A DNA stretch of 64,000 nucleotides from a virus, in the IMG/VR virus record IMGVR_UViG_3300017917_003859, positions 32,001-96,000 of that record; one strand, 5' to 3'. Each line of letters opens with the position of its first letter. Position 1 is the first letter of the stretch. The notes under the pieces were generated by a model. It made no database searches, was not told where the DNA came from, and was given only the letters and a program-made list of their open reading frames with translations. Shown here one piece after another: positions 2,908 to 33,040 of the stretch. The translations under genes and the position numbers were made by a program.

Positions 2908-4767
2908 ATGGCGGATACGAATATATTTAATAGATTAAAACGATTATTTTCCACAGATGTTATTATCAGAAATGATGGTGGAAATCAGGTTAAGGTAATG
3001 GATGTTAATTCCATTCAACGTAGTGGTGAATATCAAACTAATTCTTTAAATGATAGATTTACTAGAATTTATTCTCAAAACGCTACATCTCTTTATGGTC
3101 AACAATTAAATGTTAACTACCAGTATTTAAGAGCCCAATTATATTCAGATTATGATGTTATGGATACAGACGCTATTGTAGCATCTGCTTTAGATATTAT
3201 TTCTGATGAATGTACTTTAAAAAACGAAATGGGAGAAATACTCCAAATTCGTAGTTCTGATGAAGATCTTCAAAAAATTCTTTATAATTTATTTTATGAT
3301 GTTTTAAATATTGAATTTAATCTTTGGTCATGGACTAGACAAATGTGTAAATATGGTGACTTTTTCTTAAAACTAGAAATAGCAGAAAAATTTGGTGTAT
3401 ATAATGTAATACCTTATACTGCATACCATATAATGCGTCAAGAAAACTATGACCCAAATTTACCCGCAGCAGTAAGATTTAGATTTAGTCCTGATGGTTA
3501 TGTAGGTGGTACAGGACAATATTTTGTTCCTAATCAATATTCCAAAACAGAAAACGGAATATATTTTGATAATTACGAAATGGCTCATTTCCGTTTATTA
3601 ACTGATGTAAACTATTTACCATATGGCCGTTCTTATATAGAACCAGCTCGTAAATTATTTAAACAATACACATTAATGGAGGATGCTATGTTAATTCATA
3701 GAATATCTAGAGCACCAGAAAAACGTGTTTTTTATATCAATGTAGGTTCTATTCCTCCTAATGAAGTGGAGAATTTCATGCAAAAAACTATTAATACCAT
3801 GAAAAAAACTCCATACATAGATCAACAAACTGGTGAATATAATCTTAAGTATAACATGCAAAATATGTTAGAAGATTTTTATATTCCTGTTCGTGGTAAT
3901 GACACAACTACTAAAATTGAAACTACTAAAGGTTTAGAGTATAATGGTATTGAAGATGTTAATTATTTAAGAGATAAATTGTTTGCTGCACTTAAAATAC
4001 CTAAAGCTTTTATGGGTTATGAGAAAGATTTAAGTGGTAAAGCAACATTAGCTGCTGAAGATATTCGTTTTGCTCGCACTATTGATAGAATCCAGCGTAT
4101 TATGTTGTCTGAGTTGTATAAAATTGCTTTAGTACATTTGTATACTCAAGGATATAAAGGAGAATCTTTAACAAATTTTGAACTTTCATTAACTACTCCA
4201 TCAATTATATACGATCAAGAACGTATTGCTTTAATGAAAGAAAAGGTTGATTTAGCCAAAAACATAATGGAGGCCCAATTATTACCCACAGATTGGATTT
4301 ATCACAATATCTTCCACTTCAGTGAAGATCAATTCGATGAATACAGAGATTTAATTTTACAAGATTCTAAACGTAAATTCCGTTTATCTCAAATAGTTGA
4401 AGAAGGAAATGATCCATTAGAAACTGGCCGTTCATATGGTACTCCACATGATTTAGCATCATTGTATGGTAAAGGTAGAACTATGTCAGATCCAGGAAAT
4501 GTTCCTGATGGGTATAATGGAGATGTTAAATTAGGTAGACCTTTTGAAAAAGTATCTAATATTAATACACAACAAAACGCATTTGGTAGAGATAGATTAG
4601 GTAAAAAAGATATGAAAATAGATGATCAACCTGATTATAATTCTAAATCATTAAATGAAAATTATTTAAAAAATAAACAATTTTTAAATGAAATTGAAAA
4701 AAAATTGGTTTTTACTACAGATAAATCAAAAGAATCATTACTTGATGAAAATCAATTGAAAGACTAA
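2908..4767 (+). CDS. Portal protein (T4 gp20-like)
   Basis: LMEDAMLIHRISRAPEKRVFYINVG, MLEDFYIPVRG and YLRDKLFAALKIP are gp20-family signatures; follows terL. Confidence 0.95.
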   Translation: MADTNIFNRLKRLFSTDVIIRNDGGNQVKVMDVNSIQRSGEYQTNSLNDRFTRIYSQNATSLYGQQLNVNYQYLRAQLYSDYDVMDTDAIVASALDIISDECTLKNEMGEILQIRSSDEDLQKILYNLFYDVLNIEFNLWSWTRQMCKYGDFFLKLEIAEKFGVYNVIPYTAYHIMRQENYDPNLPAAVRFRFSPDGYVGGTGQYFVPNQYSKTENGIYFDNYEMAHFRLLTDVNYLPYGRSYIEPARKLFKQYTLMEDAMLIHRISRAPEKRVFYINVGSIPPNEVENFMQKTINTMKKTPYIDQQTGEYNLKYNMQNMLEDFYIPVRGNDTTTKIETTKGLEYNGIEDVNYLRDKLFAALKIPKAFMGYEKDLSGKATLAAEDIRFARTIDRIQRIMLSELYKIALVHLYTQGYKGESLTNFELSLTTPSIIYDQERIALMKEKVDLAKNIMEAQLLPTDWIYHNIFHFSEDQFDEYRDLILQDSKRKFRLSQIVEEGNDPLETGRSYGTPHDLASLYGKGRTMSDPGNVPDGYNGDVKLGRPFEKVSNINTQQNAFGRDRLGKKDMKIDDQPDYNSKSLNENYLKNKQFLNEIEKKLVFTTDKSKESLLDENQLKD

Positions 4768-9961: not shown

Positions 9962-11677
9962 ATGAGTTCAATTCAAACATTATTAGAATCAGCTAACCCA
10001 TGGAAATCACTTCAAAGTGATGCTGCTAAGTTAGCTACTAAATGGTCTAAAACAGGATTATTAGAGCATTTAGGAAATGACGTGGATAAAAATAACATGT
10101 CAATCTTATTAGAAAACCAAGCAAAACAGTTAGTAGTAGAAGCTAGCTCAACTGGTGCTGGTGCAACTGCAGGTACTTTTACTGTAGGTCAATCTGAAAA
10201 CTGGGCAGGTATTGCTTTACCATTAGTACGTAAAGTATTTGGTCAAATCGCTGCAAAAGAATTTGTTAGCGTTCAACCAATGAACTTACCTTCAGGTCTA
10301 GTGTTTTTCTTAGATTTCCAATACGGAACTAGCAAAAACCCATTCTCTTCAGGTGATTCACTTTATGGTACTCGTAGCGCAACTGGTCAGTTTCCATTCT
10401 CTACTACTGATACAACTGGTGGTTTATATGGTGCAGGTCGTTTTGCTTATTCAACTAACCAATTCTCAGCTTCAGTATTTATTACTGGTTCTGCTAACGG
10501 TGGTACTTTACCAGTTGTTGGTCCTGGAACAGGTTCAATTGTAACAGCTTCTTGGTCTGACTTAAACTTTGACGCTAATTACTCTGCTTCAGTAATTGCT
10601 AATGGAATTTACAAAGTTACTGTTCCTACAGCTTCTGGAGTATTATCTAACTTTGATCCAGATGGAGTTCGTGCGTTTGTTTTAACTACTGGTTCTTGGG
10701 CTACTGTAGCTAATTCTTTACCAGCATTTACATCTTACAACTACACTAACAACTCAATTACATTCTTTTTCACAGCTTCAGCTACATTAGCTGCTACTAT
10801 AGCTGGTGATAAAGCTGTAATTTATTACAATAAGATTACTGCTGATAACAATCGTGGTGATTTTGAAGATACAAGTTCTCCTTCATTCTCAGTTCCAAAT
10901 GCTGCTAGCGCTACAGCAATTTCTATCCCAGAAATCAATATCAAGATGCAATCTCAAGCTATCACTGCTAAAACTAAAAAGTTAAAAGCTGTATGGACTC
11001 CTGAATTTGCTCAAGATTTAAACGCTTATCAGAACATTGATGCTGAAGCTGAATTAACTAACATCATGAGTGAATATATTTCAATGGAAATTGATCTTGA
11101 AATTCTTGATATGTTAATCGAAGATGCTTCTGCAGCTACTGAATATTGGACAGTTCAAAATAACATCGCTTTAGGTGCTAGTGGTATTACTAATAGTAAC
11201 TTAGGTTTCTATAACACTCAAGGTGGTTGGTTCCAAACTCTTGGTACTAAAATGCAAAAAGTAAGTAACAAGATTCACCAATTAACTCTTCGTGGTGGTG
11301 CAAATTTCTTAGTATGTTCTCCAACAGTTGCTACTGTATTAGAATCAATCCCAGGATTTGCTGCTAACACTAATGGTGATGCTGCTAACATGGAATATGC
11401 AATGGGTGTTCAGAAAGTAGGTCAAATCAATAACCGTTACACAGTTTATAAGAACCCTTATATGACTGAAAACGTAATTTTGATGGGCTTCCGCGGTAAA
11501 CAATTCCTTGAATCAGGTGCTGTTTTCGCTCCATACATTCCGTTAATTATGACTCCTCTAGTGTACGATCCAAATACCTTCACTCCACGTAAAGGTTTAA
11601 TGACTCGTTACGCTAAGAAGATGTTACGTCCAGAATTTTATGGACGCATCTACGTGTCAGGTCTAAATACACTTTAA
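9962..11677 (+). CDS. Major capsid protein (T4 gp23-like)
   Basis: ILLENQ, LPLVRKVF, VSVQPMNLPSGLVF, KLKAVWTPEFAQDL, APYIPL, FTPRKGLMTRY signatures. Confidence 0.96.
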   Translation: MSSIQTLLESANPWKSLQSDAAKLATKWSKTGLLEHLGNDVDKNNMSILLENQAKQLVVEASSTGAGATAGTFTVGQSENWAGIALPLVRKVFGQIAAKEFVSVQPMNLPSGLVFFLDFQYGTSKNPFSSGDSLYGTRSATGQFPFSTTDTTGGLYGAGRFAYSTNQFSASVFITGSANGGTLPVVGPGTGSIVTASWSDLNFDANYSASVIANGIYKVTVPTASGVLSNFDPDGVRAFVLTTGSWATVANSLPAFTSYNYTNNSITFFFTASATLAATIAGDKAVIYYNKITADNNRGDFEDTSSPSFSVPNAASATAISIPEINIKMQSQAITAKTKKLKAVWTPEFAQDLNAYQNIDAEAELTNIMSEYISMEIDLEILDMLIEDASAATEYWTVQNNIALGASGITNSNLGFYNTQGGWFQTLGTKMQKVSNKIHQLTLRGGANFLVCSPTVATVLESIPGFAANTNGDAANMEYAMGVQKVGQINNRYTVYKNPYMTENVILMGFRGKQFLESGAVFAPYIPLIMTPLVYDPNTFTPRKGLMTRYAKKMLRPEFYGRIYVSGLNTL

Positions 11678-13282: not shown

Positions 13283-15997
13283 ATGAAAAAATTATTTTTA
13301 AGTTTGATTATTGTATTGAGTTTCTCAATCTTTAATCTAAAAGCAGGTCATGGTATGCCTTTAGTAAATCCTTCATTCACTGTAGGAACAACTGGATTAA
13401 CCTTTACTGCAAGTTCAAATGCTGCTACTTGCGGTGGTGGCCCATATTGGTTACAAGTAGAATTACGTTGTACTTCTAGTCAATTAACCGGAACACCTCC
13501 TTCAACCATGCAAACCAACTTATTAAACTGGACAGGCCCAGGAGTAAATTATAATAGCTTTCCTTGGTTTAATTCTTTATTGAATGTTCCTAATTATACA
13601 TTCCCTACTTGGACTGATAATTGTACTACAGAGCCTTACAACTCCGTCTTTATATCTTTCACTGGATTATGTCCCGGACAAACATATTTCTTTTCAGCTC
13701 GTGAGTGGGTGAGTGGTACTAATTCTGTTGGTCCTTGGACAACACCTTCTTCTTTTGTAGTACCAGGTACATTTGTTCCATTAAATTTTAATGTAACTGC
13801 TTCACCTAGTATATTTTGTTCACCTGGATCTTCAACTTTAACTATAAGTAGTATAACTGGAGGATGCGGCCAGACAAACATTCAATGGTTACCTGGTGGT
13901 TCTACTTTAAATCCTATAGTTGTATCACCTGCTTCAACAACTAACTATACTGCTTTAGTTACTACTCCTTGTAATACTTTATCCAAAGTAATAACAGTAA
14001 CTGTAGTTCCAAACGTCAGTGCTGCCTTTACTCCCTTAAATACAAATACTTGCGCAGGAATTCCAGTACAATATAATCATACAGGAACAGCAGGTGTATC
14101 TCATATTTGGAGTGTTTTTCCTATTGGAGCTACTATTAGTAGTAATACAATTTCAAACCCATCAATAACCTTTAACAACCCAGGACTATACACTATTTCT
14201 CATACAGTATCTGTAGGAACTTGTAGTAATGTAGTTACAACAACTGCTAATATAACAGGAATAGGCGCATCATTTACATCTAGTAATCCAAATCAATGTT
14301 TACAAAATAATAGTTTTACATTTAATTCAACAGCTACTGTTGGTACACAGTCTTATACTTTTTCACCATCTATAGGTTCTCCACCATCAAGTAATACTCC
14401 AAATTATGGCCCTGTCAGCTTTACATCTCCAGGAACATATACTGTAACTTACTCAAATACTAATTCTGGATGTACTTCTTCAACGTATTCTGTGATTAAT
14501 ATTTATCCTACCCCAACACTAGCTGTCTCTAATAGTGGACCTGTTTGTGAAGGAAATAATATTAATTTAACTTTAACAACAACAGCTACTAGCTATAGTT
14601 GGACAGGTCCTAATGGTTTTACTTCTACATTACAAAATCCATCTATAACATCTACATCAGTAGCGAATTCAGGTACATACCAAATTAATGTAGCTAGTGT
14701 TAATAATTGTACTAATACTAGTAATACTAATGTTGTTATTAATCCTCCTCCTCAAATAACAGTAACTACTCCAACAGCATGCTCCGGAGGTTCTTTTTCT
14801 ATAAATTCTTTTGGAGGTATAAACTATACTTGGACTGGTCCTAATAGTTATACATCTAATTCACAAAATTTATTTTTTACAAATGCTAATTCAAATTTAA
14901 ATGGATTGTATACTGTGGTTGGCACTGATGTTAATGGTTGTATAGGAACCAATACTGTTTTAGTTAATGTTAATCCGTCATTCACTATAAGCATAAACAA
15001 CAATAGTCCAATATGTGCTGGTTCTGTATTACAACTTAACAGCCCTCCAGGATTTATATATAATTGGTCTGGTCCGAATGGATTTAGCTCAACACAGCAA
15101 ACACCACAACTAAGCAATGTATCATCACAAACTACAGGACAGTATTCGTTAAATGTTCAAGATAATAATGGATGTCAAGGTAGTGCTGTAACTAATGTTA
15201 TTGTTAATCCTTCACCTCAACTCAGTATTACCAACTCCAAAGATAAAATATGTACTCCAGCATGTGTTGATTTTACATTAAATGCTAGTTCTAGTTTAGC
15301 ATCTTTAATTTGGGAATTTATCAGTGGTGTATCTACAAATACAAATACTTCAACTCAATGTTATACTAAAGGAGGAATATACACATCAACAGCAACTGCT
15401 ACTGATGTAAATGGATGTATTAGTGTTATAACTCATAGTGTGGAAGTATATGATACACCAACTGCTGATTTTATTTTCTCACCTTTAAAACCTATCGAGA
15501 ATGAATATGTACAATTTTCTAATGCCTCTTACGGAGCACCATTAACTAGTATGATAAATGGATGGTATATAAATAATGAACTTACTTCATTTGCTAACAG
15601 TCCTCAAATAGCATTCCAATATCCTGGAGACTATCTTGTGACTTTAATAGTTTTAACTACTCATGGTTGTAGTGATACTATTTCTAAAATAGTAAATATA
15701 AAAGAAAATTATTATTTATGGGTACCAAATTCATTTACCCCAAATAATGATGGATTAAATGATACATTCCAGCCAAAAGGTCAAGGAATTGCTAAGTACG
15801 AGTTGATGGTGTTTGATCGTTGGGGTGAAATGATTTTTAAAACTAAGGAATTTAATCAAGGGTGGGATGGTAAACATCATAGAGGTATAGATTATGGTAT
15901 TTATTGTAAAGATGATGTATATACTTGGTTAATAAAAGTAACTGATGTTTTTGGTAAATCACATGAATTAAAAGGACATGTTACATTAATAAAATAA
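13283..15997 (+). CDS. Secreted Ig/PKD-repeat protein with T9SS type-B (gliding-motility-associated) C-terminal domain
   Basis: Sec signal peptide; three WxGPN Ig-like repeats; PKD-like FQYPGDYLVTL; C-terminal VPNSFTPNNDGLNDTF..VFDRWG..GWDG..KGHVTLIK. Confidence 0.9.
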   Translation: MKKLFLSLIIVLSFSIFNLKAGHGMPLVNPSFTVGTTGLTFTASSNAATCGGGPYWLQVELRCTSSQLTGTPPSTMQTNLLNWTGPGVNYNSFPWFNSLLNVPNYTFPTWTDNCTTEPYNSVFISFTGLCPGQTYFFSAREWVSGTNSVGPWTTPSSFVVPGTFVPLNFNVTASPSIFCSPGSSTLTISSITGGCGQTNIQWLPGGSTLNPIVVSPASTTNYTALVTTPCNTLSKVITVTVVPNVSAAFTPLNTNTCAGIPVQYNHTGTAGVSHIWSVFPIGATISSNTISNPSITFNNPGLYTISHTVSVGTCSNVVTTTANITGIGASFTSSNPNQCLQNNSFTFNSTATVGTQSYTFSPSIGSPPSSNTPNYGPVSFTSPGTYTVTYSNTNSGCTSSTYSVINIYPTPTLAVSNSGPVCEGNNINLTLTTTATSYSWTGPNGFTSTLQNPSITSTSVANSGTYQINVASVNNCTNTSNTNVVINPPPQITVTTPTACSGGSFSINSFGGINYTWTGPNSYTSNSQNLFFTNANSNLNGLYTVVGTDVNGCIGTNTVLVNVNPSFTISINNNSPICAGSVLQLNSPPGFIYNWSGPNGFSSTQQTPQLSNVSSQTTGQYSLNVQDNNGCQGSAVTNVIVNPSPQLSITNSKDKICTPACVDFTLNASSSLASLIWEFISGVSTNTNTSTQCYTKGGIYTSTATATDVNGCISVITHSVEVYDTPTADFIFSPLKPIENEYVQFSNASYGAPLTSMINGWYINNELTSFANSPQIAFQYPGDYLVTLIVLTTHGCSDTISKIVNIKENYYLWVPNSFTPNNDGLNDTFQPKGQGIAKYELMVFDRWGEMIFKTKEFNQGWDGKHHRGIDYGIYCKDDVYTWLIKVTDVFGKSHELKGHVTLIK

Positions 15998-17365: not shown

Positions 17366-17746
17366 ATGTCAGCAGGTAGGTATTCATTTGTTATAGAACA
17401 AGGTTCAACATTAAATTTAGAACTCCAATATAAAGATGCTAGTGGAAATCCAATAGATTTAACAGATTATAATGGTAGAATGCAAATTCGTCCTTCAATT
17501 GCTTCTAGTACAATTTATATATCTTTAAGTAGTTCTTTACAAGCAGATGGAACAGGATTAAATTTTAGTGGATCAAATGGATCAACTCCTCCTACTTCTG
17601 GTTCAATAGGAGTATATATTTCTGCTATTTCTTCTTCATTGTTAGATTTTGATCAAGCGGTATATGATTTGGAAATATATTCTGGAAGTTATGTATCAAG
17701 AATTTTAGAAGGACAAATTAAATTATCTAAAGAAGTAACTCGATAA
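17366..17746 (+). CDS. Virion structural protein (fibre/baseplate-associated Ig-like)
   Basis: IEQGSTL..PIDLTDY..MQIR..AVYDLEI..RILEG pattern; TATTTATA at 17346; first gene of the fibre cluster. Confidence 0.6.
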   Translation: MSAGRYSFVIEQGSTLNLELQYKDASGNPIDLTDYNGRMQIRPSIASSTIYISLSSSLQADGTGLNFSGSNGSTPPTSGSIGVYISAISSSLLDFDQAVYDLEIYSGSYVSRILEGQIKLSKEVTR

Positions 17747-20700
17747 TGTCAGATTGTATAGGTCCAATTAATATTACTCCTAACAACAATCAAATCAATT
17801 TACAGGATGTTAATAGAACAATCACAGTAATTGATAATAATTGTTGTACTCAGGTTGAAATAACACAACCCATTACTAATGTTATACAAGTACTTACAGG
17901 TCCTATGGGTCCTAAAGGGGAATTCCCCACCTCAGGATCTTTTAATCTTACTGGATCGATTAATGTAAGTGGAAGTATATCTGCTAATAATTTCAATGGA
18001 GGAACATTTAGTGGATCTTTTATAGGTAATTTTAGTGGTTCAGTTTCTTCTAATTTACAAGATGTAACTAATAATGGAAATGTAACTACATTACCTATTA
18101 CTGCTTCTAGTTTTTATGGAAATGGATTGCAAATTGTAGGAAATGCTATTATAACTGGTTCTTTAACTGTAAGTGGTTCAAATACTTTTAGAAATATAGG
18201 TCCCGCTGAATTTACAGGATCATTAGGTGTAAGTGGTTCAATAAATTTTAATAATAATTCAACTCTAATACCTGATTTATTTGGAGGTCCTGGTACTGTA
18301 GATTTAGTAGCAGGGCCCGGGGGATGGGCAGAATTAACTTCAAACAACACTCAATCTTTTATTTGGGTTGATGATAATGGAGCTTATGTAGGTACAAATT
18401 GGGATATTGGAAATTATTTATGGACATTTAATAATAGTGGTTCATTAATAGCTCCAGGTAGAATAGAAGCACCATCATTTACAGGTTCATTAGAAGGTAC
18501 TGCAAGTTATGCTATAACTGCATCCTATGCTTTAAATGTTCCCTTAACTTCATCTTATGCTATACAAGCATTAAGTAGTTCATATGCTGCAACTGCTTCA
18601 CTTGCCCCAGATTATTTACCTTTAACAGGTGGAACAATAAATGGAAATGTAATAGTTAATGGTACGGCATCTATTACTTATTTAAATGTTACTTATGAAT
18701 CTGCCTCTATTATTTATTCTTCTGGTTCAAATCAATTAGGTGATACAATAGATGATATTCAAACATTAATTGGAAAAGTTATTGTAAGTGGTAGTTTTGA
18801 AGTAACTGGAAGTACAAATATTCCTAATTTAACTGGTAGTTTATTTGGAACTGCTAGCTACTCAAATAACTCAGCTACTGCTTCAAATATATTAGGTGGA
18901 AAAGCACCCCATGTTCCCTTCTTTATCACTGATACTAGTTTAGCAACAAGCTCAATTTATCAATCTGGATCTAACACTATAATTATAAACCAAGATAATG
19001 CCACATCAGCAAATCCAGAAGCATTATATGTTTGGCAACCAAGTACAAGCTCATTTAATGTAATAAGTGGTAAAGGTAACTTAAATAACTATCTACAGCT
19101 TAATATTCAAAACACAAACCAAGGAACTGATGCCTCATCAGATGTAGTTGCAACCGCCAATAATGGTAGTGAAGTAGATAACTACATTGATATGGGTATT
19201 AATAATGAGAATTTTGCTGGATTTTTAGGAGGTCCAAATGATTCTTATGTGTATACTCATGGTCATAATTTTTGGATTGGAAATGTAAATGATGGATATA
19301 AATTATATTTCTTTAATAGCTCTAGTTTACAACCAATCATAACATTAAATGCTTTAGATGCTGAAGTTACTGGTTCTTTATTTGGTACTGCCTCTTGGGC
19401 TCAAAATGCTGTAACAGCATCAAATGTAAATACTGCATCTTATGCTTTAACAGCATCTTATGCCTTAAATGTACCAACAACTGCTTCATATGCAATAAGT
19501 TCTTCATATTCTATAACTGCTTCATATGCTTTAAATGCTTTAACTTCATCATATTCTATAAGTGCTTCACATGCTAATATATCTAATGATGCTTTAACAG
19601 CTACCAGTGCATCACATGCTTTAGTAGCAGATAATGCTTTAACAGCAAATTATGCTACAACAGCAGGTAATGGTGGAGTAACACAACTTATAGCAGGATC
19701 GGGTATTACATTATTACCTCCTGGAGGTCAAGGAGCAGTTACAATAGTATCAACTGGAGGTGGAGGTGTTACTATTATATCTGGCTCATTAATAACTGGT
19801 TCATTTATTAATACTACTAGTTATACTTTTAATCATAATTTAAATACTAGAACACCTATTATAACTGTATTTGATTCTAATTATAATCAAATTATACCTG
19901 AAAATATACAGTTAGTAGATAGTTCAAGTGCAATTATAACTTTTCCAACACAAGAAAGTGGATTTGCTATAGGATCAACCGGAGGCACAACCGGTACTGC
20001 TTTATCATCATCATATGCTTTATTTTCAACTTACGCTACTACAGCATCTTTCTATCAAGAAACAGATCCAATATTTACAGCTAAGAGTGCATCTTTAGCA
20101 ACAACAGGATCTAATATATTTAGAGGTAATCAAACGGTAACCGGAAGTCTATTCACAAGTGGCTCAAACACCTTAGTAGGAAACACAGTTTTAAGTGGCA
20201 GTATTAATATAAGTGGTTCTCAAACATTTAATGGTACCTCAGCTTTTTATGGTAACCATACATTGAGTGGTAGCAATACAATTACTGGAAATACTATTTT
20301 AAGTGGTAGTATTGAGGTAAGTGGTTCATCTAATTTTCATAATTCAAGTTTTATAGTAACAGGTTCAACTTCATTTTCTGGAAGTTTTAATGTTAAGGGA
20401 ACTTCTACATTCTCAGATACATCAATGACATTAACTGGTTCACTATTAGTAAGTGGATCTCAAATATTTAATGGTATAATAACAGTAACCGGATCTCAGT
20501 TTTTTAGTGGTTCTTCAAATATTAATGGAGCAGCTTCAATTACAGGCTCATTAAATGTAAGAGACGGAGACATTAATATAGTAAGTGGATCATCATTTAC
20601 AAGATGGGGTAATAAGTTATTTAACTACGGACAATTCTCAGATACTACAATACAAACAGGCTCAGCAAACACTGCGTATGCAATGAGATTTAATACAACA

Positions 20701-21075
20701 GATTTTGGATTAGGAGTAAGTTTAGTAAGTGGAAGTAGAATAACTGTAGAAAATACTGGAATATATAATTTACAATTTTCAGCTCAATTAGCTAACACTG
20801 CCAATACAACTATAGCAGTTGACATATGGTTTGCAATAACTGGAAGTAATGTACCTAATTCAAATACTCAAGTAAATATAACTAAAACCGCAGGTTCAAC
20901 TGGTAGAAACGTAGCAGCATGGAATTTTGCAACTCCTTTAAGTGCAAGCCAATATATAGAAATATATTGGAGTTGTGATGCCTCTACAGCACAAATACAA
21001 TCCGCCCCAACTGCAAGTACACCAACAAGACCAGCAATTCCATCAATAATAGCAACATTAACACAGATAGCATAA
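17746..21075 (+). CDS. Long tail fibre-like protein
   Basis: 1109 aa, Ser/Thr/Gly-rich, short GPMGPKG, TASYA repeats and many SGS/TGS beta repeats. Confidence 0.75.
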   Translation: MSDCIGPINITPNNNQINLQDVNRTITVIDNNCCTQVEITQPITNVIQVLTGPMGPKGEFPTSGSFNLTGSINVSGSISANNFNGGTFSGSFIGNFSGSVSSNLQDVTNNGNVTTLPITASSFYGNGLQIVGNAIITGSLTVSGSNTFRNIGPAEFTGSLGVSGSINFNNNSTLIPDLFGGPGTVDLVAGPGGWAELTSNNTQSFIWVDDNGAYVGTNWDIGNYLWTFNNSGSLIAPGRIEAPSFTGSLEGTASYAITASYALNVPLTSSYAIQALSSSYAATASLAPDYLPLTGGTINGNVIVNGTASITYLNVTYESASIIYSSGSNQLGDTIDDIQTLIGKVIVSGSFEVTGSTNIPNLTGSLFGTASYSNNSATASNILGGKAPHVPFFITDTSLATSSIYQSGSNTIIINQDNATSANPEALYVWQPSTSSFNVISGKGNLNNYLQLNIQNTNQGTDASSDVVATANNGSEVDNYIDMGINNENFAGFLGGPNDSYVYTHGHNFWIGNVNDGYKLYFFNSSSLQPIITLNALDAEVTGSLFGTASWAQNAVTASNVNTASYALTASYALNVPTTASYAISSSYSITASYALNALTSSYSISASHANISNDALTATSASHALVADNALTANYATTAGNGGVTQLIAGSGITLLPPGGQGAVTIVSTGGGGVTIISGSLITGSFINTTSYTFNHNLNTRTPIITVFDSNYNQIIPENIQLVDSSSAIITFPTQESGFAIGSTGGTTGTALSSSYALFSTYATTASFYQETDPIFTAKSASLATTGSNIFRGNQTVTGSLFTSGSNTLVGNTVLSGSINISGSQTFNGTSAFYGNHTLSGSNTITGNTILSGSIEVSGSSNFHNSSFIVTGSTSFSGSFNVKGTSTFSDTSMTLTGSLLVSGSQIFNGIITVTGSQFFSGSSNINGAASITGSLNVRDGDINIVSGSSFTRWGNKLFNYGQFSDTTIQTGSANTAYAMRFNTTDFGLGVSLVSGSRITVENTGIYNLQFSAQLANTANTTIAVDIWFAITGSNVPNSNTQVNITKTAGSTGRNVAAWNFATPLSASQYIEIYWSCDASTAQIQSAPTASTPTRPAIPSIIATLTQIA

Positions 21076-21076
21076 T

Positions 21077-21808
21077 ATGAAAATATTTCAACCTATAATA
21101 TCAGGATCATTAAGCGTTTCAGGTTCAGTTACAGCAATTGACTTTACTGGAAGTTTACGTGGTACTGCTTCTTATGCTATAACAGCCTCTTATGCTTTAA
21201 ATGGTGGAGGAGGTGGAGCATCATTCCCTTATACGGGTAGCGCAATTATAACTGGTAGTTTAATTGTAACTGGATCTACTACATCAACTTTAGGATTTAC
21301 AGGAAGTTTATATGGAACAGCAAGTTGGGCTAATAATTCAACTAGTGCTTCTTACGCTTTAAGCAGCTCTTATTCATTAACATCTTCATACGCATTAGTA
21401 GCAGATTCAGTTTTAGGTAGTGTTACTAGTGCTAGTTATGCTGCAACATCATCTTATAGTAATAATTTTACAGTAAATAGTACTATAACTATTGATCAAA
21501 CACTAACTGATTACGCCAGTGTGAATTCTAGTATAGTTGGTTCTAATAATCTATTTACACAAGCCACTGGCTCAAGAACCTCAGCTCATGGGAAATACAC
21601 TATATATAAAGGTGCAAATGCGAGAGCTGGAGAATTTATAACTGTATGGAATGGAACTACAGTAACATATACAGATGTTTCAACAACAGATATAGGAAAT
21701 ACAAGTGATATTACATTTCAATCATCAATTGTTGGAGGAAATATACAAATAGACATAGTTGCAGGCTCATCAGGTTGGACAATAAAAATGCTAACAATGT
21801 TTATTTAA
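21077..21808 (+). CDS. Short fibre-like virion protein
   Basis: Shares FTGSLxGTASYA and FPYTGSA blocks with neighbouring fibre genes. Confidence 0.7.
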   Translation: MKIFQPIISGSLSVSGSVTAIDFTGSLRGTASYAITASYALNGGGGGASFPYTGSAIITGSLIVTGSTTSTLGFTGSLYGTASWANNSTSASYALSSSYSLTSSYALVADSVLGSVTSASYAATSSYSNNFTVNSTITIDQTLTDYASVNSSIVGSNNLFTQATGSRTSAHGKYTIYKGANARAGEFITVWNGTTVTYTDVSTTDIGNTSDITFQSSIVGGNIQIDIVAGSSGWTIKMLTMFI

Positions 21809-21848: not shown

Positions 21849-24497
21849 ATGGCAAACGAATTTATAGCTCGTAATGGGCTCATAGCACAAAATAATTCAG
21901 TAGTATCTGGATCATTAACAGTAACTGGAGGTATTACTGGTTCATTATTAGGAACAGCATCATATACTTCACAAGCATTAAGTGCTTCATTCACCTCTAC
22001 TGCTTCTTATGTTAATCCACTATCACAATCAGTTTTAATAACTGGTAGTATAAATTTAACTGGATCAATAAATGCGTATGTAACTGGAGGAGATTATGTA
22101 AATATAGGTAACTATGCAAATCCAACTAATTTAAGAACATTAACGGTTGGGCAAAATACGGCTTACATGAGCTTTGGTAGTTTGGTTGGTGCTACAAGTT
22201 ATGGAGCTATTTACATTAACCAAGCAACACCAAGCGTATCTAATTATACCATAACATCTGATGGGCTTATCAGTGTTTTAAACGCATCAACAATAGCCTA
22301 CATAAGAATATTAAATAACAATCGTATTGCTATATCAAATACAGACCAGTCATTTACACCCGCAGCAGCAACAAGTGGGGCTGTTACAACTTTTACATTC
22401 ACCAAACCTAACAACACAGGACAGACAGCATCAACGGCTATTAACGGTATACTTTATACTTTAGGTAATAGACAATGGGCAACTGGAAATATTACAACGC
22501 AAAAAGAATTTGAACTTACAAGCCCTACTTATTTATTTACAGGTGCTAGTACAATAACGTCAGCATATTCATTTTATGTTAATGCCCCCGTAGCAGGAAC
22601 TAATGCCACAATAACCACAGCGTATGCTGCGGGATTCAATGGTCGTGTTCGTATTGAGGGTATTGTTAACTTAGGTGATGGTCGGATTTTTTCCGATGCA
22701 GGAATGGATTTTAACGCAGGTTCAAATTCAATAAGATTCTTCGTTGGTGGTGCTGGAGTTGGTGCATTTACAACAACTAGATTAACAGTAACGCCGTTTA
22801 CATCAAATACAGGTGCAGTAAATAATATATCATTTACAATTCCAGCAAATACAGGTCAAACAGCCTCTACGCCTATTATAGGAGTAAATTGGGCTTTAGG
22901 TTCAAGACAGTGGGCAACTGGTAACATCACAACTCAACAAGAATACCTACTAACAGCACCAACTTATTCTTTTGTAGGAGCTAGTACAATCACTAATTCA
23001 TATACATTTTACGTAGAAGCAGCTTTAGCAGGAACAAATGCCACAATAACTAATAACTATGCAGCTGGGTTTAACGGAAGAGTAAGAGTATTAGCAGGAG
23101 GAGCAGATATCACAGGTCCATTAATTGTTACTGGTAACTTAAATGTATCTAATTCAGTAACAGCCTCAATCGTATCAGCCTCAGCATTTACCGGTTCATT
23201 GTTTGGAACGGCAACAAGTGCATCATTTGCTTCAACAGCATCATTTGCTTCAACAGCATCATATTCTGAAACAGCTTCTTATGCAGTTGTATTCCCATAC
23301 ACAGGATCTGCAAATATAAGTGGTAGTATAAATTTAGAAGGAAACTATATACAGAATATTAACACTAATATTGGTGGAAATTATTATCATATAGAAGGAA
23401 ATAATAATACGAATGGAACTCAAACCGCCTTTTCTGCTTCAATAAATGCAGGTATAGTTACTGTAGATACTACATATGGAGACGTTACTGGATTCTTCAC
23501 TAACAATAATTATTTATTTATATATGATGCCTTTCAAGACAACATATATGGTAAAATTACTCGTCAATATGACTCAGCCAGTTACAATGGAACAAACACT
23601 CTCATCAACTTATTTGATGTAACAGTTACTACTACAGCAGCATATATTATAGATGCTAGTTCTATTGGTACAGGTGGTGATAAAACAATTCCTGCAGATT
23701 ATACTCATATTGAAGGATATAATAATATAACTGTTGGAAATTATAGTCATATAAAAGGTTATAGTAGTGTAGCTGTTGGAAATTATTCACACGCTGAAGG
23801 CCAAGGTGCATTAGCAATAGGAGATTATTCACATGCTGAAGGTGTAGGATCTGTTGCAATAGGAGAAGGTTCTCATGCTGAAGGAGGTTCCAAATCTGTA
23901 GGAAACTATTCACATGCTGAAGGTAGAATTAATCAAGCAATAGGAGATTATTCACACGCTGAAGGATTAAATACAAAAACAATTGGAACTTTTTCACATA
24001 CTGAAGGTGAAGGTACAATTGCATCAGGATCTGCTCAACATGTATCAGGAAAATATAATACTCATGGAGACACTACTTCTTTATTTATTATAGGAAATGG
24101 AGTAGATAACTTAAATAGATCAGATATAGTTAGAGTTACAACAACAGACGTGCAAGTAACTGGCTCTGTAATAGCCACAGCATTTACAGGATCTTTATAT
24201 GGTACAGCTTCTTGGGCTGAACACGCCTCAACTGCTTCATATGTTAATGGAATGATTACTAAAGTTAATGCGGTAACAGCAGCTTCTTTTGGTGGTACAC
24301 CATTAACAGCAAGTGTAACATTTACAACACCTTTTCCTAATGCAAACTACGGAATTACAATTACAGGAGAAGATGCTCGTACGTGGACAATACAATCAAA
24401 AGCTATAACTGGATTTGTGATTAATTCAAATAGTAGTGTTGCTCTAACTGGAAATACTTACTGGCAAGCTACAGGTTATGGTGAATTTAATAGTTAA
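21849..24497 (+). CDS. Tail fibre/adhesin with duplicated domain and YadA-like head repeats
   Basis: MANEF start, TASY blocks, ~90-aa internal duplication, ~14-aa (G)xYSHAEG repeats. Confidence 0.75.
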   Translation: MANEFIARNGLIAQNNSVVSGSLTVTGGITGSLLGTASYTSQALSASFTSTASYVNPLSQSVLITGSINLTGSINAYVTGGDYVNIGNYANPTNLRTLTVGQNTAYMSFGSLVGATSYGAIYINQATPSVSNYTITSDGLISVLNASTIAYIRILNNNRIAISNTDQSFTPAAATSGAVTTFTFTKPNNTGQTASTAINGILYTLGNRQWATGNITTQKEFELTSPTYLFTGASTITSAYSFYVNAPVAGTNATITTAYAAGFNGRVRIEGIVNLGDGRIFSDAGMDFNAGSNSIRFFVGGAGVGAFTTTRLTVTPFTSNTGAVNNISFTIPANTGQTASTPIIGVNWALGSRQWATGNITTQQEYLLTAPTYSFVGASTITNSYTFYVEAALAGTNATITNNYAAGFNGRVRVLAGGADITGPLIVTGNLNVSNSVTASIVSASAFTGSLFGTATSASFASTASFASTASYSETASYAVVFPYTGSANISGSINLEGNYIQNINTNIGGNYYHIEGNNNTNGTQTAFSASINAGIVTVDTTYGDVTGFFTNNNYLFIYDAFQDNIYGKITRQYDSASYNGTNTLINLFDVTVTTTAAYIIDASSIGTGGDKTIPADYTHIEGYNNITVGNYSHIKGYSSVAVGNYSHAEGQGALAIGDYSHAEGVGSVAIGEGSHAEGGSKSVGNYSHAEGRINQAIGDYSHAEGLNTKTIGTFSHTEGEGTIASGSAQHVSGKYNTHGDTTSLFIIGNGVDNLNRSDIVRVTTTDVQVTGSVIATAFTGSLYGTASWAEHASTASYVNGMITKVNAVTAASFGGTPLTASVTFTTPFPNANYGITITGEDARTWTIQSKAITGFVINSNSSVALTGNTYWQATGYGEFNS
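22389..23090 (+). repeat. Diverged ~90-codon internal duplication in fibre gene
   Basis: TGQTAST..RQWATGNITTQ..GASTIT..AGTNATIT..YAAGFNGRVR occurs twice; TGQ starts at 22416 and 22851 (period 435 nt). Confidence 0.85.
23697..24020 (+). repeat. Tandem ~42-nt repeats encoding YadA-head-like beta-roll units
   Basis: Repeated TATTC(A/T)CA(C/T)GCTGAAGG encoding YSHAEG. Confidence 0.8.
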
Positions 24498-24521: not shown

Positions 24522-26744
24522 ATGTCAATTTTTTATAATGATAGTGCAAGTTTTAAATCTTTAGAGATTACAAATGATTTTATTTATACCAATACAGAGT
24601 CTTTTTCTATAAATGGACCATTACAACTTAATCCAACTAAAGATCCAGGTACATCTAATATTTCAGCTTCTTATTTATTTGTATCATCTTCAGTAGACAA
24701 TACAGAGTATAATTTACATTATAGAAATAATGGAACACTTTGGGAAACTCATTGGCTAGAAGAAAAAACAGATACAGGTATAGTTTGGGGAGGAATACTA
24801 ACATTTACAGGAACTACAATGTCAATTACTCCTGGAGTAGGATTAATTATAAATCATAATGCATCTACTAGTTCACATGGAGATACAGTTCCAACTTATG
24901 TTAAGTTTGGCCCTATAACAGCTAGTGCAACTTATATAACATCATCACAAGTAACATATTTACTAATTGATACTGATGGAACTTTAATACAACAACCTAC
25001 AATATTTACTCCACAACAGTTTAATGAAAAACTACCATTAGGATATATCTTTTGTTTAACAACTTCTAGTATTAGTAGTTATGCAGATGCAAGAACAACT
25101 ACCTATGGACAAGACGAACAACAAACCCAATTTATTAGAGCATTTGGTCCATTAAAAGTAAATGGATATGATATAACACCACAAAGTGGATCTTTAAAAA
25201 TATCTATAGCTTCTGGACGAACTTATCGTTATGGTGGATTTTATACACAAAATCCAGACAATCCTTCTATATATGACTCCACAACAGTACCAACAGGAAG
25301 TTTAGTAAGAATTCAAAGAGATCCTGCAATTGTAGGAGGATTTAAAGCAATTACTAATGGAGGACTACCTTTTACAGTAATAGATCCTACAATGTGGGAT
25401 GATGGAAGTGGTACATTACAATCTGTAGGAGCAAGTGAATGGACAATTCAAAGATTATTTCAAGGAGTTGTAAATAACATTACTTACGTATATTATGGTC
25501 AAAATACTTATGACAGTTTAAATGCTGCTATACAAAGTATAACAACAGAAGCGTTTGAAGAAGCGCAAACTAGTATATTAGCTTTACCATTTATAGGGTA
25601 TGTTATTTGTAAAGGTAATACAACAAATTTAGCAGACACCACTGAGAATAAAATAATTAATTCTGGATTATTTAGAAATACAGCAGGCTCAAGTGGAGGG
25701 GGAGGTGTTGCAACAACAACATTAAATGATCTATCAGATGTAACCATTACATCACCATCAACGGGTCAAGCTTTAGTTTATAATGCAGGTATTTGGGTAA
25801 ATTCAAACCCAACATCAGCTTCATATGCCTCAACAGCTTCTTATATATTAGAAGCAGTAAGTGCATCTTATGCTACTTTAGCACAAACCGCTAACACAGC
25901 ATCTTTTGTACAAACAGCTCAAACTGCCTCATACGTGCTACAAGCAGTATCAAGTTCGTATGCAACAACATCAAGTTATGCATCAAGTGGAAATGGAATA
26001 TTTAGTGGATCGTTTAGTGGATCATTTGAAGGAAATGGTTCTGGATTAACAGGAATTATTGCAACCGCAGCACCTGCAGGACCAGATACATCAATTCAAT
26101 TTAACAGTGGTGGTACTACAGCTGGAAGTGCAGACCTTACTTTTAATGACACGACAAACAAGTTAACATTAACCGGATCATTGTATATAACTGGCTCAGT
26201 AGACGCTACAATATTTACTAATACATTAAAAATATCTGGATCTAGCGGCGCTTCCGGTAATTATATAACAACTCAGTTTTTAGGTAGCGATGTTACCAAT
26301 AGTACAACAGGATTAGTAACTGCAATGACAACTACAGGAGTAGGTCCTGGATTGTATCAATTTAAGTATGTAGTAAGATATCAGTCAGCTGCAACTACAA
26401 CTGGTATAGGCTTAGCAGTAGATCACACGCAAGCTGCTAATTACTTTGTATCTTCGTTTTGGTTTATTTCAACCGGTGGTGCTGCAGCAACTGGTGTAGC
26501 CGATCAAGTAGCTACGACTAATGCTGGTCAAATGGCTGAAGGTAAATCAGAACGTGTTAAAGGTACTGTTTCATCTACAACAGCGGGTGTTGATACAATA
26601 AACGCTGACATGTTAGCAGTAATGGAAGGTTTAATAGATGTATCGACGAGCGGAGATTTAATTTTAGAATTTAGATCAGAGGTGGCTGCTTCTCAAGTAA
26701 CTATTAAATCAGGAACTAGTCTTATATTAACTAAAATGTCATAA
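24522..26744 (+). CDS. Tail fibre/virion protein
   Basis: LNDLSDV..GQALVY..W repeat, AGPDTSIQFN motif, TASY blocks; TATTTATA at 24504. Confidence 0.7.
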   Translation: MSIFYNDSASFKSLEITNDFIYTNTESFSINGPLQLNPTKDPGTSNISASYLFVSSSVDNTEYNLHYRNNGTLWETHWLEEKTDTGIVWGGILTFTGTTMSITPGVGLIINHNASTSSHGDTVPTYVKFGPITASATYITSSQVTYLLIDTDGTLIQQPTIFTPQQFNEKLPLGYIFCLTTSSISSYADARTTTYGQDEQQTQFIRAFGPLKVNGYDITPQSGSLKISIASGRTYRYGGFYTQNPDNPSIYDSTTVPTGSLVRIQRDPAIVGGFKAITNGGLPFTVIDPTMWDDGSGTLQSVGASEWTIQRLFQGVVNNITYVYYGQNTYDSLNAAIQSITTEAFEEAQTSILALPFIGYVICKGNTTNLADTTENKIINSGLFRNTAGSSGGGGVATTTLNDLSDVTITSPSTGQALVYNAGIWVNSNPTSASYASTASYILEAVSASYATLAQTANTASFVQTAQTASYVLQAVSSSYATTSSYASSGNGIFSGSFSGSFEGNGSGLTGIIATAAPAGPDTSIQFNSGGTTAGSADLTFNDTTNKLTLTGSLYITGSVDATIFTNTLKISGSSGASGNYITTQFLGSDVTNSTTGLVTAMTTTGVGPGLYQFKYVVRYQSAATTTGIGLAVDHTQAANYFVSSFWFISTGGAAATGVADQVATTNAGQMAEGKSERVKGTVSSTTAGVDTINADMLAVMEGLIDVSTSGDLILEFRSEVAASQVTIKSGTSLILTKMS

Positions 26745-32551: not shown

Positions 32552-33040
32552 ATGGCAGTATTATCACCAAACGAAATATTTTTTACAGCATTTGAACCTA
32601 AAGTAAAAAACAGGTTTATTATGTATGTAGATGGAATCCCTTCATATATGATTAAATCAATTTCTGGAGTATCAGTAGATATGGGAGAAATAGTTTTAAA
32701 TCATATTAACATTTATCGTAAAATTAAAGGTAAAGCAAAATGGAGTGATTTAACTATGACTTTATTTGATCCAATTACTCCTTCTGGTGCTCAAGCAACA
32801 ATGGAATGGGTTCGTTTACATCATGAATCTGTAACTGGTCGTGATGGTTATTCTGATTTTTATAAAAAAGATGTAACTATTAACGTATTAGGCCCTGTAG
32901 GTGATATAGTGTCAGAATGGATCGTTAAAGGAGCATTCATTAAATCATCTAATTTTGGTGATTTTAATTGGGATACCGATGCTGAAGCTCAAAGTATTGA
33001 AGTAGTGTTAGGTATGGATTATATGATCTTAAATTACTAA
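32552..33040 (+). CDS. Tail tube protein (gp19-like)
   Basis: Follows sheath; NRF, KGKAKWSD, YKKD, W..GAF tube-family patterns; TATGTATA at 32511. Confidence 0.9.
   Translation: MAVLSPNEIFFTAFEPKVKNRFIMYVDGIPSYMIKSISGVSVDMGEIVLNHINIYRKIKGKAKWSDLTMTLFDPITPSGAQATMEWVRLHHESVTGRDGYSDFYKKDVTINVLGPVGDIVSEWIVKGAFIKSSNFGDFNWDTDAEAQSIEVVLGMDYMILNY

What the first reader, a model, noticed from the sequence alone, without database searches (positions are those of the whole stretch)
10457..10780. [S/T]-[G/A]-S tripeptide clustered in likely exposed regions of unrelated virion proteins: candidate modification sequon
Seen: the capsid protein has eight such tripeptides (SAS, TGS, TGS, TAS, SAS, TAS, TGS, TAS) within about 110 residues and I find none in the rest. 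The sheath has six, all in its N-terminal half. The 126-aa ORF 17366 has three, neck and baseplate proteins one each, and the fibres many; replication enzymes nearly lack it. Capsid, sheath and fibres have unrelated folds, so a structural repeat cannot explain all of them. Inference: a lineage-specific signal for Ser/Thr modification (e.g. O-glycosylation) coating the virion. No modifying enzyme is visible in this window.
Basis: partly seen in the sequence, partly recalled or inferred. Interest (0 to 1): 0.75.

Follow-up and report, generated by a model that had tools for sequence, protein, structure and literature searches.

The report
Candidate sugar-attachment motif on phage virion
The outward-facing head, sheath, baseplate and fibre proteins of this 155-kb T4-like aquatic phage carry the tripeptide Ser/Thr-Gly/Ala-Ser four to five times more often than chance. 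The phage also encodes a conserved pair of soluble sugar transferases outside the window, so the tripeptide may mark where the phage sugar-coats its own particle, although no sugar has been measured.

Summary
The capsid protein has 8 [ST][GA]S, all in residues 169-273 (expected 1.8; 0.9 within that stretch alone). The sheath has 6, all in the N-terminal half. The fibres have 15-58 each.

The excess survives 20-residue block shuffles and uses mixed synonymous codons. It is position-specific: the third residue is Ser only, the middle is G>A>S, and TGS 60 versus SGT 15 and TGT 16 genome-wide.

Portal, tube, terminase, scaffold and hub lack the motif. T4, HTVC008M, S-MbCM100 and two huge phages show no such excess. 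The same orthologues are enriched in four relatives (Flavobacterium phage immuto, Microcystis phage Mel-JY01, two IMG/VR genomes), and site positions turn over while the counts stay high. The motif-rich regions are not homologous to each other.

Outside the window the genome has a 17-kb island of soluble enzymes: two GT4, three GT2, methyltransferases and sugar-tailoring enzymes. The GT4 pair is core to the motif-bearing clade. DNA of immuto carries no glycosylated base.

Best reading (about 0.45): an O-glycosylation sequon read by phage transferases. The main rival is an unmodified structural motif; over half of the fibre copies sit in 6-residue repeats. No chemistry exists. Other agents of this scan reported a similar [S/T]-G-S motif with a transferase pair on other DNA.

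The parts
9962..11677 (+). Major capsid protein, T4 Gp23 type, 571 aa
   Evidence: PF07068 at E 1.6e-74. T4 gp23 chains at E 4.5e-28. AF2 model pLDDT 82.8. Foldseek top hits are the P1 and T4 heads.
10466..10780 (+). Cluster of eight [ST][GA]S in capsid residues 169-273, the region equivalent to the T4 insertion domain
   Evidence: Sites are kept in 73-98% of 120 close homologues. The motif is concentrated at reference positions 160-295 in homologues of 30-60% identity. Sites lie at the ends or starts of predicted strands, and one lies in a helix.
17366..17746 (+). 126-aa virion-associated ORF with three SGS
   Evidence: phrog_1084 at E 4.9e-19. The excess is weak (p 0.04). The G005 orthologue has 3 v 0.6.
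17746..21075 (+). Fibre protein, 1109 aa, 58 motif copies, many at 6-residue spacing
21077..21808 (+). Fibre protein, 243 aa, 13 copies; shares the module [ST]GS-L-x-G-[ST]AS with the other fibres
21849..24497 (+). Fibre protein, 882 aa, 26 copies, with YadA-head-like repeats
24522..26744 (+). Fibre protein, 740 aa, 15 copies
30748..32457 (+). Tail sheath, 569 aa; six copies at residues 62-257, N-terminal to the conserved gp18-like core (residues 362-567)
   Evidence: PF04984 and PF17482. T4 gp18 at E 1.4e-46 over residues 362-567. Orthologues have 8, 10, 8 and 7 copies.
2908..4767 (+). Portal protein, an internal virion protein with 0 copies; serves as a negative control
   Evidence: phrog_213 at E 2.9e-59. 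0 copies in all clade orthologues.
32552..33040 (+). Tail tube, covered by the sheath, 0 copies; serves as a negative control
   Evidence: phrog_4542.
13283..15997 (+). S/T-rich PKD/Ig protein with a CHU_C type IX secretion signal domain; not enriched (2 v 3.5); serves as an internal control

Best explanation
The proposal is that [ST]-[G/A, sometimes S]-S, usually with a hydrophobic residue just before and just after, is an acceptor motif (sequon). Soluble phage-encoded glycosyltransferases would read it in the cytoplasm and attach O-linked sugars to the outward-facing parts of the virion: the capsid insertion domain, the outer sheath domains, the baseplate periphery and the fibres.

The most likely initiating enzymes are the adjacent pair of GT4 (GT-B fold) transferases at G000:C1:103890-105341 and 105353-106669. 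Both keep the E-x7-E motif. The variable GT2 and GT10-like transferases, methyltransferases and sugar-tailoring enzymes of the same 17-kb island (to about 120533) would build and decorate the glycan.

Shown: the motif statistics, its distribution over proteins and relatives, and the gene content. Inferred: that the motif is read by an enzyme at all, that the enzyme is this pair, and that a sugar is attached.
For: 1. Excess over composition and over local composition in at least five mutually non-homologous protein families.

2. Sharp position specificity that simple chemistry does not predict. After [ST][GA], Ser is 3.2-4.1x over composition, while Thr is 0.3-0.7x and Asp and Asn are not enriched. 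Genome-wide counts are TGS 60 v SGT 15 v TGT 16, and TAS 47 v SAT 15 v TAT 15.

3. Codons are synonymous mixtures, so the selection acts on the protein.

4. Only outer virion proteins carry the motif. Portal, tube, terminase, scaffold, hub and the large inner tail ORFs are at or below expectation.

5. The same orthologues are enriched in G003, G005, immuto and Mel-JY01, yet sites turn over. The sheath has 25 motif columns in 5 orthologues, none shared by all and 15 unique, while counts stay at 6-10 against an expected 2-3. This fits selection on number rather than on fixed structural positions.

6. Controls without the transferase pair show no ORF-level excess and no asymmetry: T4 (14 v 25), HTVC008M, S-MbCM100, LR756511 and LR756508.

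7. The genome encodes two GT4, three GT2, one weak GT10-like, three methyltransferases, RmlD, DegT, an ATP-grasp enzyme, an SDR, SMP-30 and a 2OG oxygenase. None has a predicted membrane segment, and the genome has no flippase-, polymerase- or oligosaccharyltransferase-like multi-TM ORF.

8. The GT4 pair is present, adjacent and 46-65% identical in all eight clade genomes searched. The first of the two has more than 8000 metagenome relatives, and the 120 best are 63-100% identical.

9. Its closest solved structure, by sequence and by fold, is the chlorovirus NY-2A putative transferase B736L.

10. Virion DNA of immuto gave only dA, dC, dT and fdPreQ1 in place of dG. The island there is therefore not used to glycosylate DNA (10.1101/2023.04.13.536721). 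This phage also has QueC.

11. Mel-JY01 is recorded on a cyanobacterial host, so the trait follows the phage lineage and not a Bacteroidota host enzyme.
Against: - There is no chemical evidence of any modification in this phage or in any relative.
- The co-occurrence amounts to roughly one independent contrast (the clade against its neighbours).
- LR756508 has a 33%-identical homologue of the first transferase but no motif excess. RM378 has a single homologue and motif-rich ORFs of unknown role, while its capsid and sheath are not enriched.
- The fold of the transferase is generic GT4 and says nothing about the acceptor.
- In the capsid model the sites sit at strand ends with hydrophobic flanks, and one lies in a helix. 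They could therefore be structural caps. Solvent exposure could not be computed.
- 67 of 125 fibre copies lie in 6-residue periodic arrays.
- The depletion in the rest of the proteome (18 v 32) is not consistent across relatives.
- The island could instead modify host surface glycans through host lipid carriers.
Confidence: 0.45

Rival explanations
1. The motif is an unmodified structural signature. A Ser/Thr ends a beta strand, a small residue allows the chain to break or pack, and a Ser starts the next turn. The phage lineage has used this repeatedly in beta-rich surface modules, and the fibres amplified it as 6-residue repeats. On this reading the glycan island serves something else, such as remodelling host surface polysaccharide.
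For: Seven of the eight capsid sites lie at the start or end of predicted strands. Flanks are hydrophobic at -1 and +3. 67 of 125 fibre copies have a neighbour exactly 6 residues away, and the fibres share the module [ST]GS-L-x-G-[ST]AS. Some sites are conserved in all orthologues, for example three in ORF 10571, and capsid column 208 is conserved down to 30-40% identity. Large aquatic phages often carry glycosyltransferases of unknown role.
Against: A general structural rule should also show in homologous proteins of T4, HTVC008M, S-MbCM100, LR756508 and RM378, and it does not. Thr, Asp and Asn are as good or better as strand-end or cap residues but are not enriched at position 3, and the mirror forms SGT and SAT are not enriched. 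Most sites turn over between orthologues while the counts are kept. The beta-rich PKD/Ig protein of the same genome is not enriched. The regions are not homologous, so no shared promiscuous domain explains the pattern.
Confidence: 0.3
2. The motif is read by a trans-acting factor other than a glycosyltransferase. Candidates are another O-linked modification (phosphorylation, acylation), a phage chaperone or assembly factor (the phage encodes a Cpn60 chaperonin), or a decoration protein that docks on the motif.
For: The specificity, directionality, restriction to one lineage and site turnover all call for a reader, but none of them identifies it. The phage encodes Cpn60 and many ORFs of unknown function.
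Against: No kinase or acyltransferase candidate was seen in the ORFs scanned. Chaperonins are not known to read short polar motifs (established knowledge of GroEL). The conserved soluble GT4 pair and sugar island are the only clear candidate modifying enzymes found, and they co-occur with the trait.
Confidence: 0.13
3. The excess is a chance or compositional artefact of Ser-, Thr-, Gly- and Ala-rich proteins, with the motif picked after the fact.
For: ORF 17366 (p 0.04) and the gp6-like wedge protein (3 v 0.9) are weak on their own.
Against: Local block shuffles still give p 0.0025 for the capsid and p 0.0005 or less for every fibre. 12 of 209 ORFs pass Poisson p<0.01, and all 12 lie in structural gene blocks. 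The result is replicated in four related genomes and absent in five controls.
Confidence: 0.02

Closest known systems
Virion glycosylation of mycobacteriophages (Che8 and other cluster F1 phages; Freeman et al. 2023, Cell Host Microbe 31:1216; known here through PMC11256854 and PMC12582341)
   Same: Phage-encoded glycosyltransferases act in the cytoplasm, and glycans are covalently attached to the major capsid protein to give a glycan coat (PMC11256854).
   Different: The phage family (T4-like myovirus) and the hosts (Bacteroidota, cyanobacteria) differ. Here a short internal tripeptide is scattered over the capsid insertion domain, sheath, baseplate and fibres, and the tail tube has none. In the mycobacteriophages the sugars are, to my knowledge, on C-terminal extensions of the capsid and tail-tube subunits; that paper is not held, so this was not checked. 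Nothing has been shown chemically here.
Chlorovirus (PBCV-1, NY-2A) capsid glycosylation by virus-encoded soluble glycosyltransferases
   Same: The virus encodes its own cytoplasmic transferases and sugar enzymes, and it uses non-canonical acceptor motifs on the outer face of the capsid protein (PMC5408694 and PMC9614988, listed). The first GT4 of this phage has chlorovirus NY-2A B736L as its best solved relative by sequence (E 7.6e-8) and by fold.
   Different: Chlorovirus glycans are N-linked to Asn on a double-jelly-roll capsid protein. B736L itself is only a putative transferase. Identity is about 16% over the fold alignment, and other GT4 enzymes (MshA, PimB', glycogen synthase) score nearly as well.
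Bacteroidota general O-glycosylation, sequon D-(S/T)-(A/I/L/V/M/T)
   Same: It is a three-residue Ser/Thr sequon in the phylum of the probable host.
   Different: The motif differs: there is no Asp at -1, where the residue is mostly V/F/I/Y/L, and Ser is obligatory at +2. That system acts on exported proteins in the periplasm (established knowledge), whereas virions assemble in the cytoplasm. The trait is also present in a phage recorded on Microcystis.
Serine-rich-repeat adhesin glycosylation by GtfA/GtfB in Gram-positive bacteria
   Same: It uses an adjacent pair of GT-B proteins acting in the cytoplasm on Ser-small-Ser motifs (own knowledge, used as a lead only).
   Different: There is no match to the NCBIfam GtfA or GtfB models. 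No GtfA appears among the top Foldseek hits. Both phage proteins keep the catalytic E-x7-E motif, whereas GtfB is a non-catalytic partner.

Membership tests
T4-type major capsid protein (Pfam Gp23, PF07068) | Significant match to the family profile, and an HK97-like fold with an insertion domain | tested here: met
   E 1.6e-74 and 252 bits against a cut-off of 24.4. Foldseek finds the T4 and P1 heads at E 1e-20. About 130 extra residues lie between the parts that align to T4 77-197 and 249-478.
Phage-encoded virion glycosylation (mycobacteriophage type) | Glycosyltransferase genes in the phage genome | tested here: met
   Three GT2 and two GT4 at or near the curated Pfam cut-offs, plus sugar-tailoring enzymes, at G000:C1:103890-120533.
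Phage-encoded virion glycosylation (mycobacteriophage type) | Glycans covalently bound to virion proteins (mass spectrometry, glycan stain) | not testable with these tools
   No proteomic or mass data exist for this phage or its relatives. Literature searches found none.
Phage-encoded virion glycosylation (mycobacteriophage type) | Homology of the transferases or of the acceptor regions to the Che8 system | not tested
Sequon-directed protein glycosylation (general criterion) | A short motif over-represented on exposed acceptor proteins with position-specific constraints, beyond what composition explains | tested here: met
   with controls.
Sequon-directed protein glycosylation (general criterion) | Motif hydroxyls are solvent-exposed in the assembled particle | tested here: inconclusive
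   The capsid sites lie in the region equivalent to the T4 insertion domain, which protrudes from the capsid (PMC9546572). The sheath sites lie N-terminal to the conserved core.
Bacteroidota general O-glycosylation | Sequon D-(S/T)-(A/I/L/V/M/T) | tested here: not met
   Position -1 is mostly hydrophobic, and Asp is not among the seven commonest residues there. Position +2 is Ser only.
GtfA/GtfB serine-rich-repeat glycosylation | A GtfA-family catalytic subunit plus a non-catalytic GtfB partner | tested here: not met
   No NCBIfam GtfA or GtfB hit. Both proteins keep a conserved E-x7-E motif. No GtfA in the Foldseek top 50.
Phage DNA sugar hypermodification (glycosyltransferases acting on modified bases) | Glycosylated nucleosides in virion DNA | tested here: not met
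   This was tested through the literature for the closest cultured relative only. DNA of immuto gave dA, dC, dT and fdPreQ1. The syntenic island is present in immuto. This phage has QueC. It was not measured for this phage itself.

The most novel reading that the evidence does not exclude
An abundant clade of T4-like aquatic phages, infecting Bacteroidota and apparently cyanobacteria, coats its whole outer virion with O-linked glycans. The coated parts would be the capsid insertion domain, sheath, baseplate and fibres. The glycans would be attached at a previously undescribed sequon, hydrophobic-[ST]-[GAS]-S-hydrophobic, by a conserved pair of soluble phage GT4 transferases. A hypervariable island of further transferases and methyltransferases would diversify the glycan between phages.
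Probability: 0.4. Interest if true: 0.85.

Novelty: new variant of a known kind. Interest (0 to 1): 0.68.

Why it matters
Virion glycosylation by phage enzymes is documented only for some mycobacteriophages and, among large DNA viruses, for chloroviruses. A sequon-directed sugar coat on a widespread group of T4-like aquatic phages would have several consequences.

- It would give a function to the glycosyltransferase islands that are common and unexplained in large environmental phages. The first transferase here has more than 8000 metagenome relatives.
- It would define a new bacterial-virus O-glycosylation sequon.
- It would bear on adsorption, particle stability, grazing and decay of phages in water.

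The hypothesis is directly testable, because a cultured relative with the same genes and the same motif pattern exists (Flavobacterium phage immuto).

Tried and rejected
1. DNA-level cause. Rejected: the motif codons are mixtures of TCA/TCT/AGT, ACT/ACA and GGT/GGA, like the background.

2. Compositional artefact. Rejected by shuffles of the local region and by 20-residue block shuffles.

3. A general property of T4-like virion proteins. Rejected by T4, HTVC008M and S-MbCM100.

4. One promiscuous domain inserted into many virion proteins. hhalign finds no similarity among the motif-rich regions, except for the paralogues ORF 10571 and ORF 11612. The alignments were shallow, with 1-5 sequences each.

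5. A helix or turn N-cap explanation for the third-position Ser. Asp, Asn and Thr are not enriched there.

6. The host Bacteroidota sequon. The motif does not match.

7. A GtfA/GtfB-like system. Not supported.

8. Transferases acting on DNA. Contradicted for the relative immuto by published nucleoside analysis.

9. Solved homologues of the fibres that might explain the repeats. None were found.

10. The identity of the motif-rich ORFs of RM378. PHROGs gave nothing beyond a neck adaptor, so RM378 could not be used as an independent lineage.

11. Avoidance of the motif in non-virion proteins. It is seen in this genome (18 v 32) and in G005, but not in G003, immuto or Mel-JY01. It is therefore not claimed.

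12. The primary paper on mycobacteriophage glycosylation is not held.
Full report
**What the window is.** The window is bases 32001-96000 of a 155,027-bp IMG/VR phage record that is about 95% complete. GC content is about 30%, and almost all genes are on one strand. The capsid protein (9962-11677) is a T4 Gp23-type protein: PF07068 at E 1.6e-74 and T4 gp23 chains at E 4.5e-28. The closest cultured relative is Flavobacterium phage vB_FspM_immuto (57% capsid identity). Next come Microcystis phage Mel-JY01 (50%), the huge phage LR756508 (48%) and Rhodothermus phage RM378 (35%). A PKD protein with a CHU_C type IX secretion signal domain fits a Bacteroidota host.

**The observation.**
- The capsid has eight [ST][GA]S, all in residues 169-273 (nt 10466-10780). 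Shuffles give 1.8 for the whole protein and 0.9 for residues 160-279 alone, and 8 was reached in at most 1 of 5000 shuffles.
- The sheath has six copies against 1.7 expected (p 0.007), all in residues 62-257.
- The four fibres have 58, 13, 26 and 15 against 7.9, 3.0, 5.1 and 4.3.
- ORF 17366 is weak on its own (3 v 0.8, p 0.04).
- Shuffling within 20-residue blocks, which keeps local composition, still gives p 0.0025 for the capsid and p 0.019 for the sheath.
- Over the whole genome, 12 of 209 ORFs pass Poisson p<0.01. All 12 lie in structural gene blocks, including a baseplate block and further fibre-like genes outside the window.
- Portal, large terminase, tail tube, hub and the probable scaffold have none. 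The neck adaptor and the large inner tail ORFs are at or below expectation.

**The nature of the signal.** The signal is at the protein level, because the codons are synonymous mixtures like the background.
- It is position-specific. After [ST][GA], Ser is 3.2x (non-fibre) and 4.1x (fibre) over composition, while Thr is 0.67x and 0.27x. Asp and Asn are not enriched.
- The first residue is Ser or Thr only.
- The middle residue is G>A, with S also raised in non-fibre proteins, and never D.
- It is directional: genome-wide TGS 60, SGT 15, TGT 16, TAS 47, SAT 15, TAT 15.
- Flanks are mostly hydrophobic at -1 and +3.
- In the fibres, 67 of 125 copies have a neighbour exactly six residues away, and the fibres share a module of the form [ST]GS-L-x-G-[ST]AS. 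There the motif is part of periodic structural repeats. In the non-fibre proteins only 8 of 60 copies are so spaced.

**The capsid.** The AF2 model (pLDDT 82.8) matches the T4 and P1 heads. The part aligning to T4 residues 77-197 ends at query 175, and the next aligned part starts at query 324 and T4 249. The motif cluster therefore lies in an enlarged equivalent of the T4 insertion domain, which forms protrusions on the capsid surface (PMC9546572). Seven sites lie at the start or end of predicted strands and one in a short helix. In 120 homologues of 78-86% identity each site is kept in 73-98%, often through changes inside the class such as TAS to TGS or SGS to TGS. In homologues of 30-60% identity the motif is still concentrated at reference positions 160-295. 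Across 80 IMG/VR capsids of 53-76% identity the total is 392 against 120 expected.

**Unrelated folds.** Profile-profile comparison of the motif-rich regions finds only one related pair, the paralogues ORF 10571 and ORF 11612. The regions compared were the capsid insertion region, the sheath N-terminal part, five baseplate-block ORFs, the 126-aa ORF and two others. All other pairs have a probability of 1.4% or less. The alignments were shallow, so distant homology is not excluded.

**Controls.**
- T4 structural proteins show no excess (14 v 25; gp23, gp18, gp34-37 and gp12 all ordinary).
- The marine T4-like phages HTVC008M and S-MbCM100 have one marginal ORF each and no TGS/SGT asymmetry.
- The huge phages LR756508 and LR756511 have 0 and 1 enriched ORFs.
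- The trait is therefore not a general property of myovirus particles.

Within the clade, G003, G005, immuto and Mel-JY01 have 8-12 enriched ORFs each. The same orthologues are affected:
- sheath: 8, 10, 8 and 7;
- ORF 2647: 7, 9, 5 and 4;
- ORF 5359: 17, 16, 8 and 13;
- ORF 10571: 7, 7, 4 and 7;
- portal, tube, terminase and scaffold: at or near 0.

Sites turn over. The five sheath orthologues have 25 distinct motif columns, none shared by all and 15 unique. ORF 2647, ORF 11612 and the capsid behave similarly, while ORF 10571 keeps three sites in all five. Alignment error in variable regions inflates this somewhat. Even so, many aligned triplets clearly differ.

**Candidate enzymes.** These lie outside the window, at G000:C1:103890-120533.
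- Two adjacent GT4-like proteins of 483 and 438 aa.
- Three GT2 and a weak GT10-like match.
- Three methyltransferases, an RmlD-like reductase, a short DegT aminotransferase, an ATP-grasp enzyme, an SDR, an SMP-30 lactonase and a 2OG oxygenase.
- No ORF of the region has a predicted membrane segment, and the genome has no flippase-, polymerase- or oligosaccharyltransferase-like ORF.
- Both GT4 proteins keep a conserved E-x7-E motif.
- The 483-aa protein folds as a GT-B enzyme (pLDDT 87.5). Its best solved relative, by sequence (E 7.6e-8) and by fold, is the putative transferase B736L of chlorovirus NY-2A, closely followed by generic GT4 enzymes.
- The pair is present and adjacent in all eight clade genomes searched, at 46-65% identity. 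In Mel-JY01 the first gene is split.
- The island is syntenic in immuto but has different tailoring genes.
- LR756508 has only a 33%-identical homologue of the first gene, RM378 has one homologue, and LR756511, T4, HTVC008M and S-MbCM100 have none.

Motif excess and the full pair therefore coincide. This is about one independent contrast, and RM378 is unclear: it has seven motif-rich ORFs of unknown role, and its capsid and sheath are not enriched.

**What the transferases do not do.** A rival use for phage transferases is sugar hypermodification of DNA (10.1101/2023.12.21.572611). For immuto, published nucleoside analysis found canonical dA, dC and dT, with dG fully replaced by a formylated 7-deazaguanine (10.1101/2023.04.13.536721). 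No glycosylated base was reported. This phage has QueC in the window (54254-55138), so the same pathway is likely here. Modification of host surface glycans through host lipid carriers cannot be excluded.

**Weighing.** The signal has six properties: sharp and directional specificity, restriction to outer virion proteins of unrelated families, absence from homologues in other lineages, turnover of sites with maintained numbers, independence from host phylum, and coincidence with a conserved soluble transferase pair. Together these are best explained by a trans-acting reader of the motif, and O-glycosylation by the phage's own enzymes is the most economical candidate. I give this 0.45. An unmodified structural motif remains a serious rival (0.30). 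The reasons are the strand-end positions, the hydrophobic flanks, the periodic fibre repeats and the complete lack of chemistry. Another kind of reader gets 0.13 and chance 0.02.

**Comparison with what is known.** Virion glycosylation by phage enzymes is known for cluster F1 mycobacteriophages, and capsid glycosylation by viral enzymes is known for chloroviruses. The Bacteroidota sequon does not fit. A GtfA/GtfB-type system is not supported. Literature searches found no report of this motif or of glycosylated virions in T4-like aquatic phages.

**Earlier notes of this scan.** Earlier notes had already recorded the same motif on the overlapping window of this genome and the glycan island. A follow-up on another genome reached a similar reading for an [S/T]-G-S motif with a transferase pair. 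These notes are not independent evidence.

Noticed in passing
window 54254-55138: A QueC homologue (PF06508, E 1.8e-40). With the published fdPreQ1 DNA of the relative immuto, this suggests that dG in this phage's DNA is replaced by a 7-deazaguanine. The Pfam TGT model found no DpdA-type transglycosylase.
   Followed up: partly
window 13283-15997: A phage-encoded 904-aa protein with PKD/Ig domains and a CHU_C type IX secretion signal domain. It is S/T-rich but not enriched in the motif.
   Followed up: partly
L004:2823-4454 (G000:C1:97823-99454, outside the window): A phage-encoded Cpn60/GroEL-type chaperonin (PF00118, E 3e-70).
   Followed up: no
L004:11662-12210 (G000:C1:106662-107210): An Acb1-like 2H phosphoesterase (anti-CBASS family, E 1.9e-7) lies directly after the GT4 pair. 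It is followed by a NUMOD homing endonuclease inside the glycan island.
   Followed up: no
L002:10571-11608 and L002:11612-12574 (G000, baseplate block): Two adjacent paralogous ORFs (hhalign 99.2%), both motif-rich, with similar C-terminal ends. They are conserved in all clade genomes.
   Followed up: partly
L213 (Mel-JY01, record positions 83441-84932): The orthologue of the first GT4 gene is split into two ORFs of 190 and 302 aa, with a TGA between them, in Microcystis phage Mel-JY01. This may be a sequencing error or a real break. The motif excess is still present in that phage.
   Followed up: no
G003:C1:108937-116865 (L106-L107): A 2642-aa ORF built almost entirely of Ser-Gly-rich repeats (SGT about 400 times, SGS about 300 times) in a related IMG/VR phage. 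It distorts genome-wide tripeptide counts for that genome.
   Followed up: no
L006:3486-4817 (G000:C1:134486-135817): A thymidylate-synthase-family protein of 443 aa, far longer than the 266-position profile, which it matches over residues 6-339. Whether it is ThyA or a hydroxymethylase was not resolved.
   Followed up: no
L005:14028-15361 (G000:C1:127028-128361): A ClpP-family protease gene and a glucosaminidase gene lie directly upstream of a motif-rich fibre-like ORF (128394-129518).
   Followed up: no
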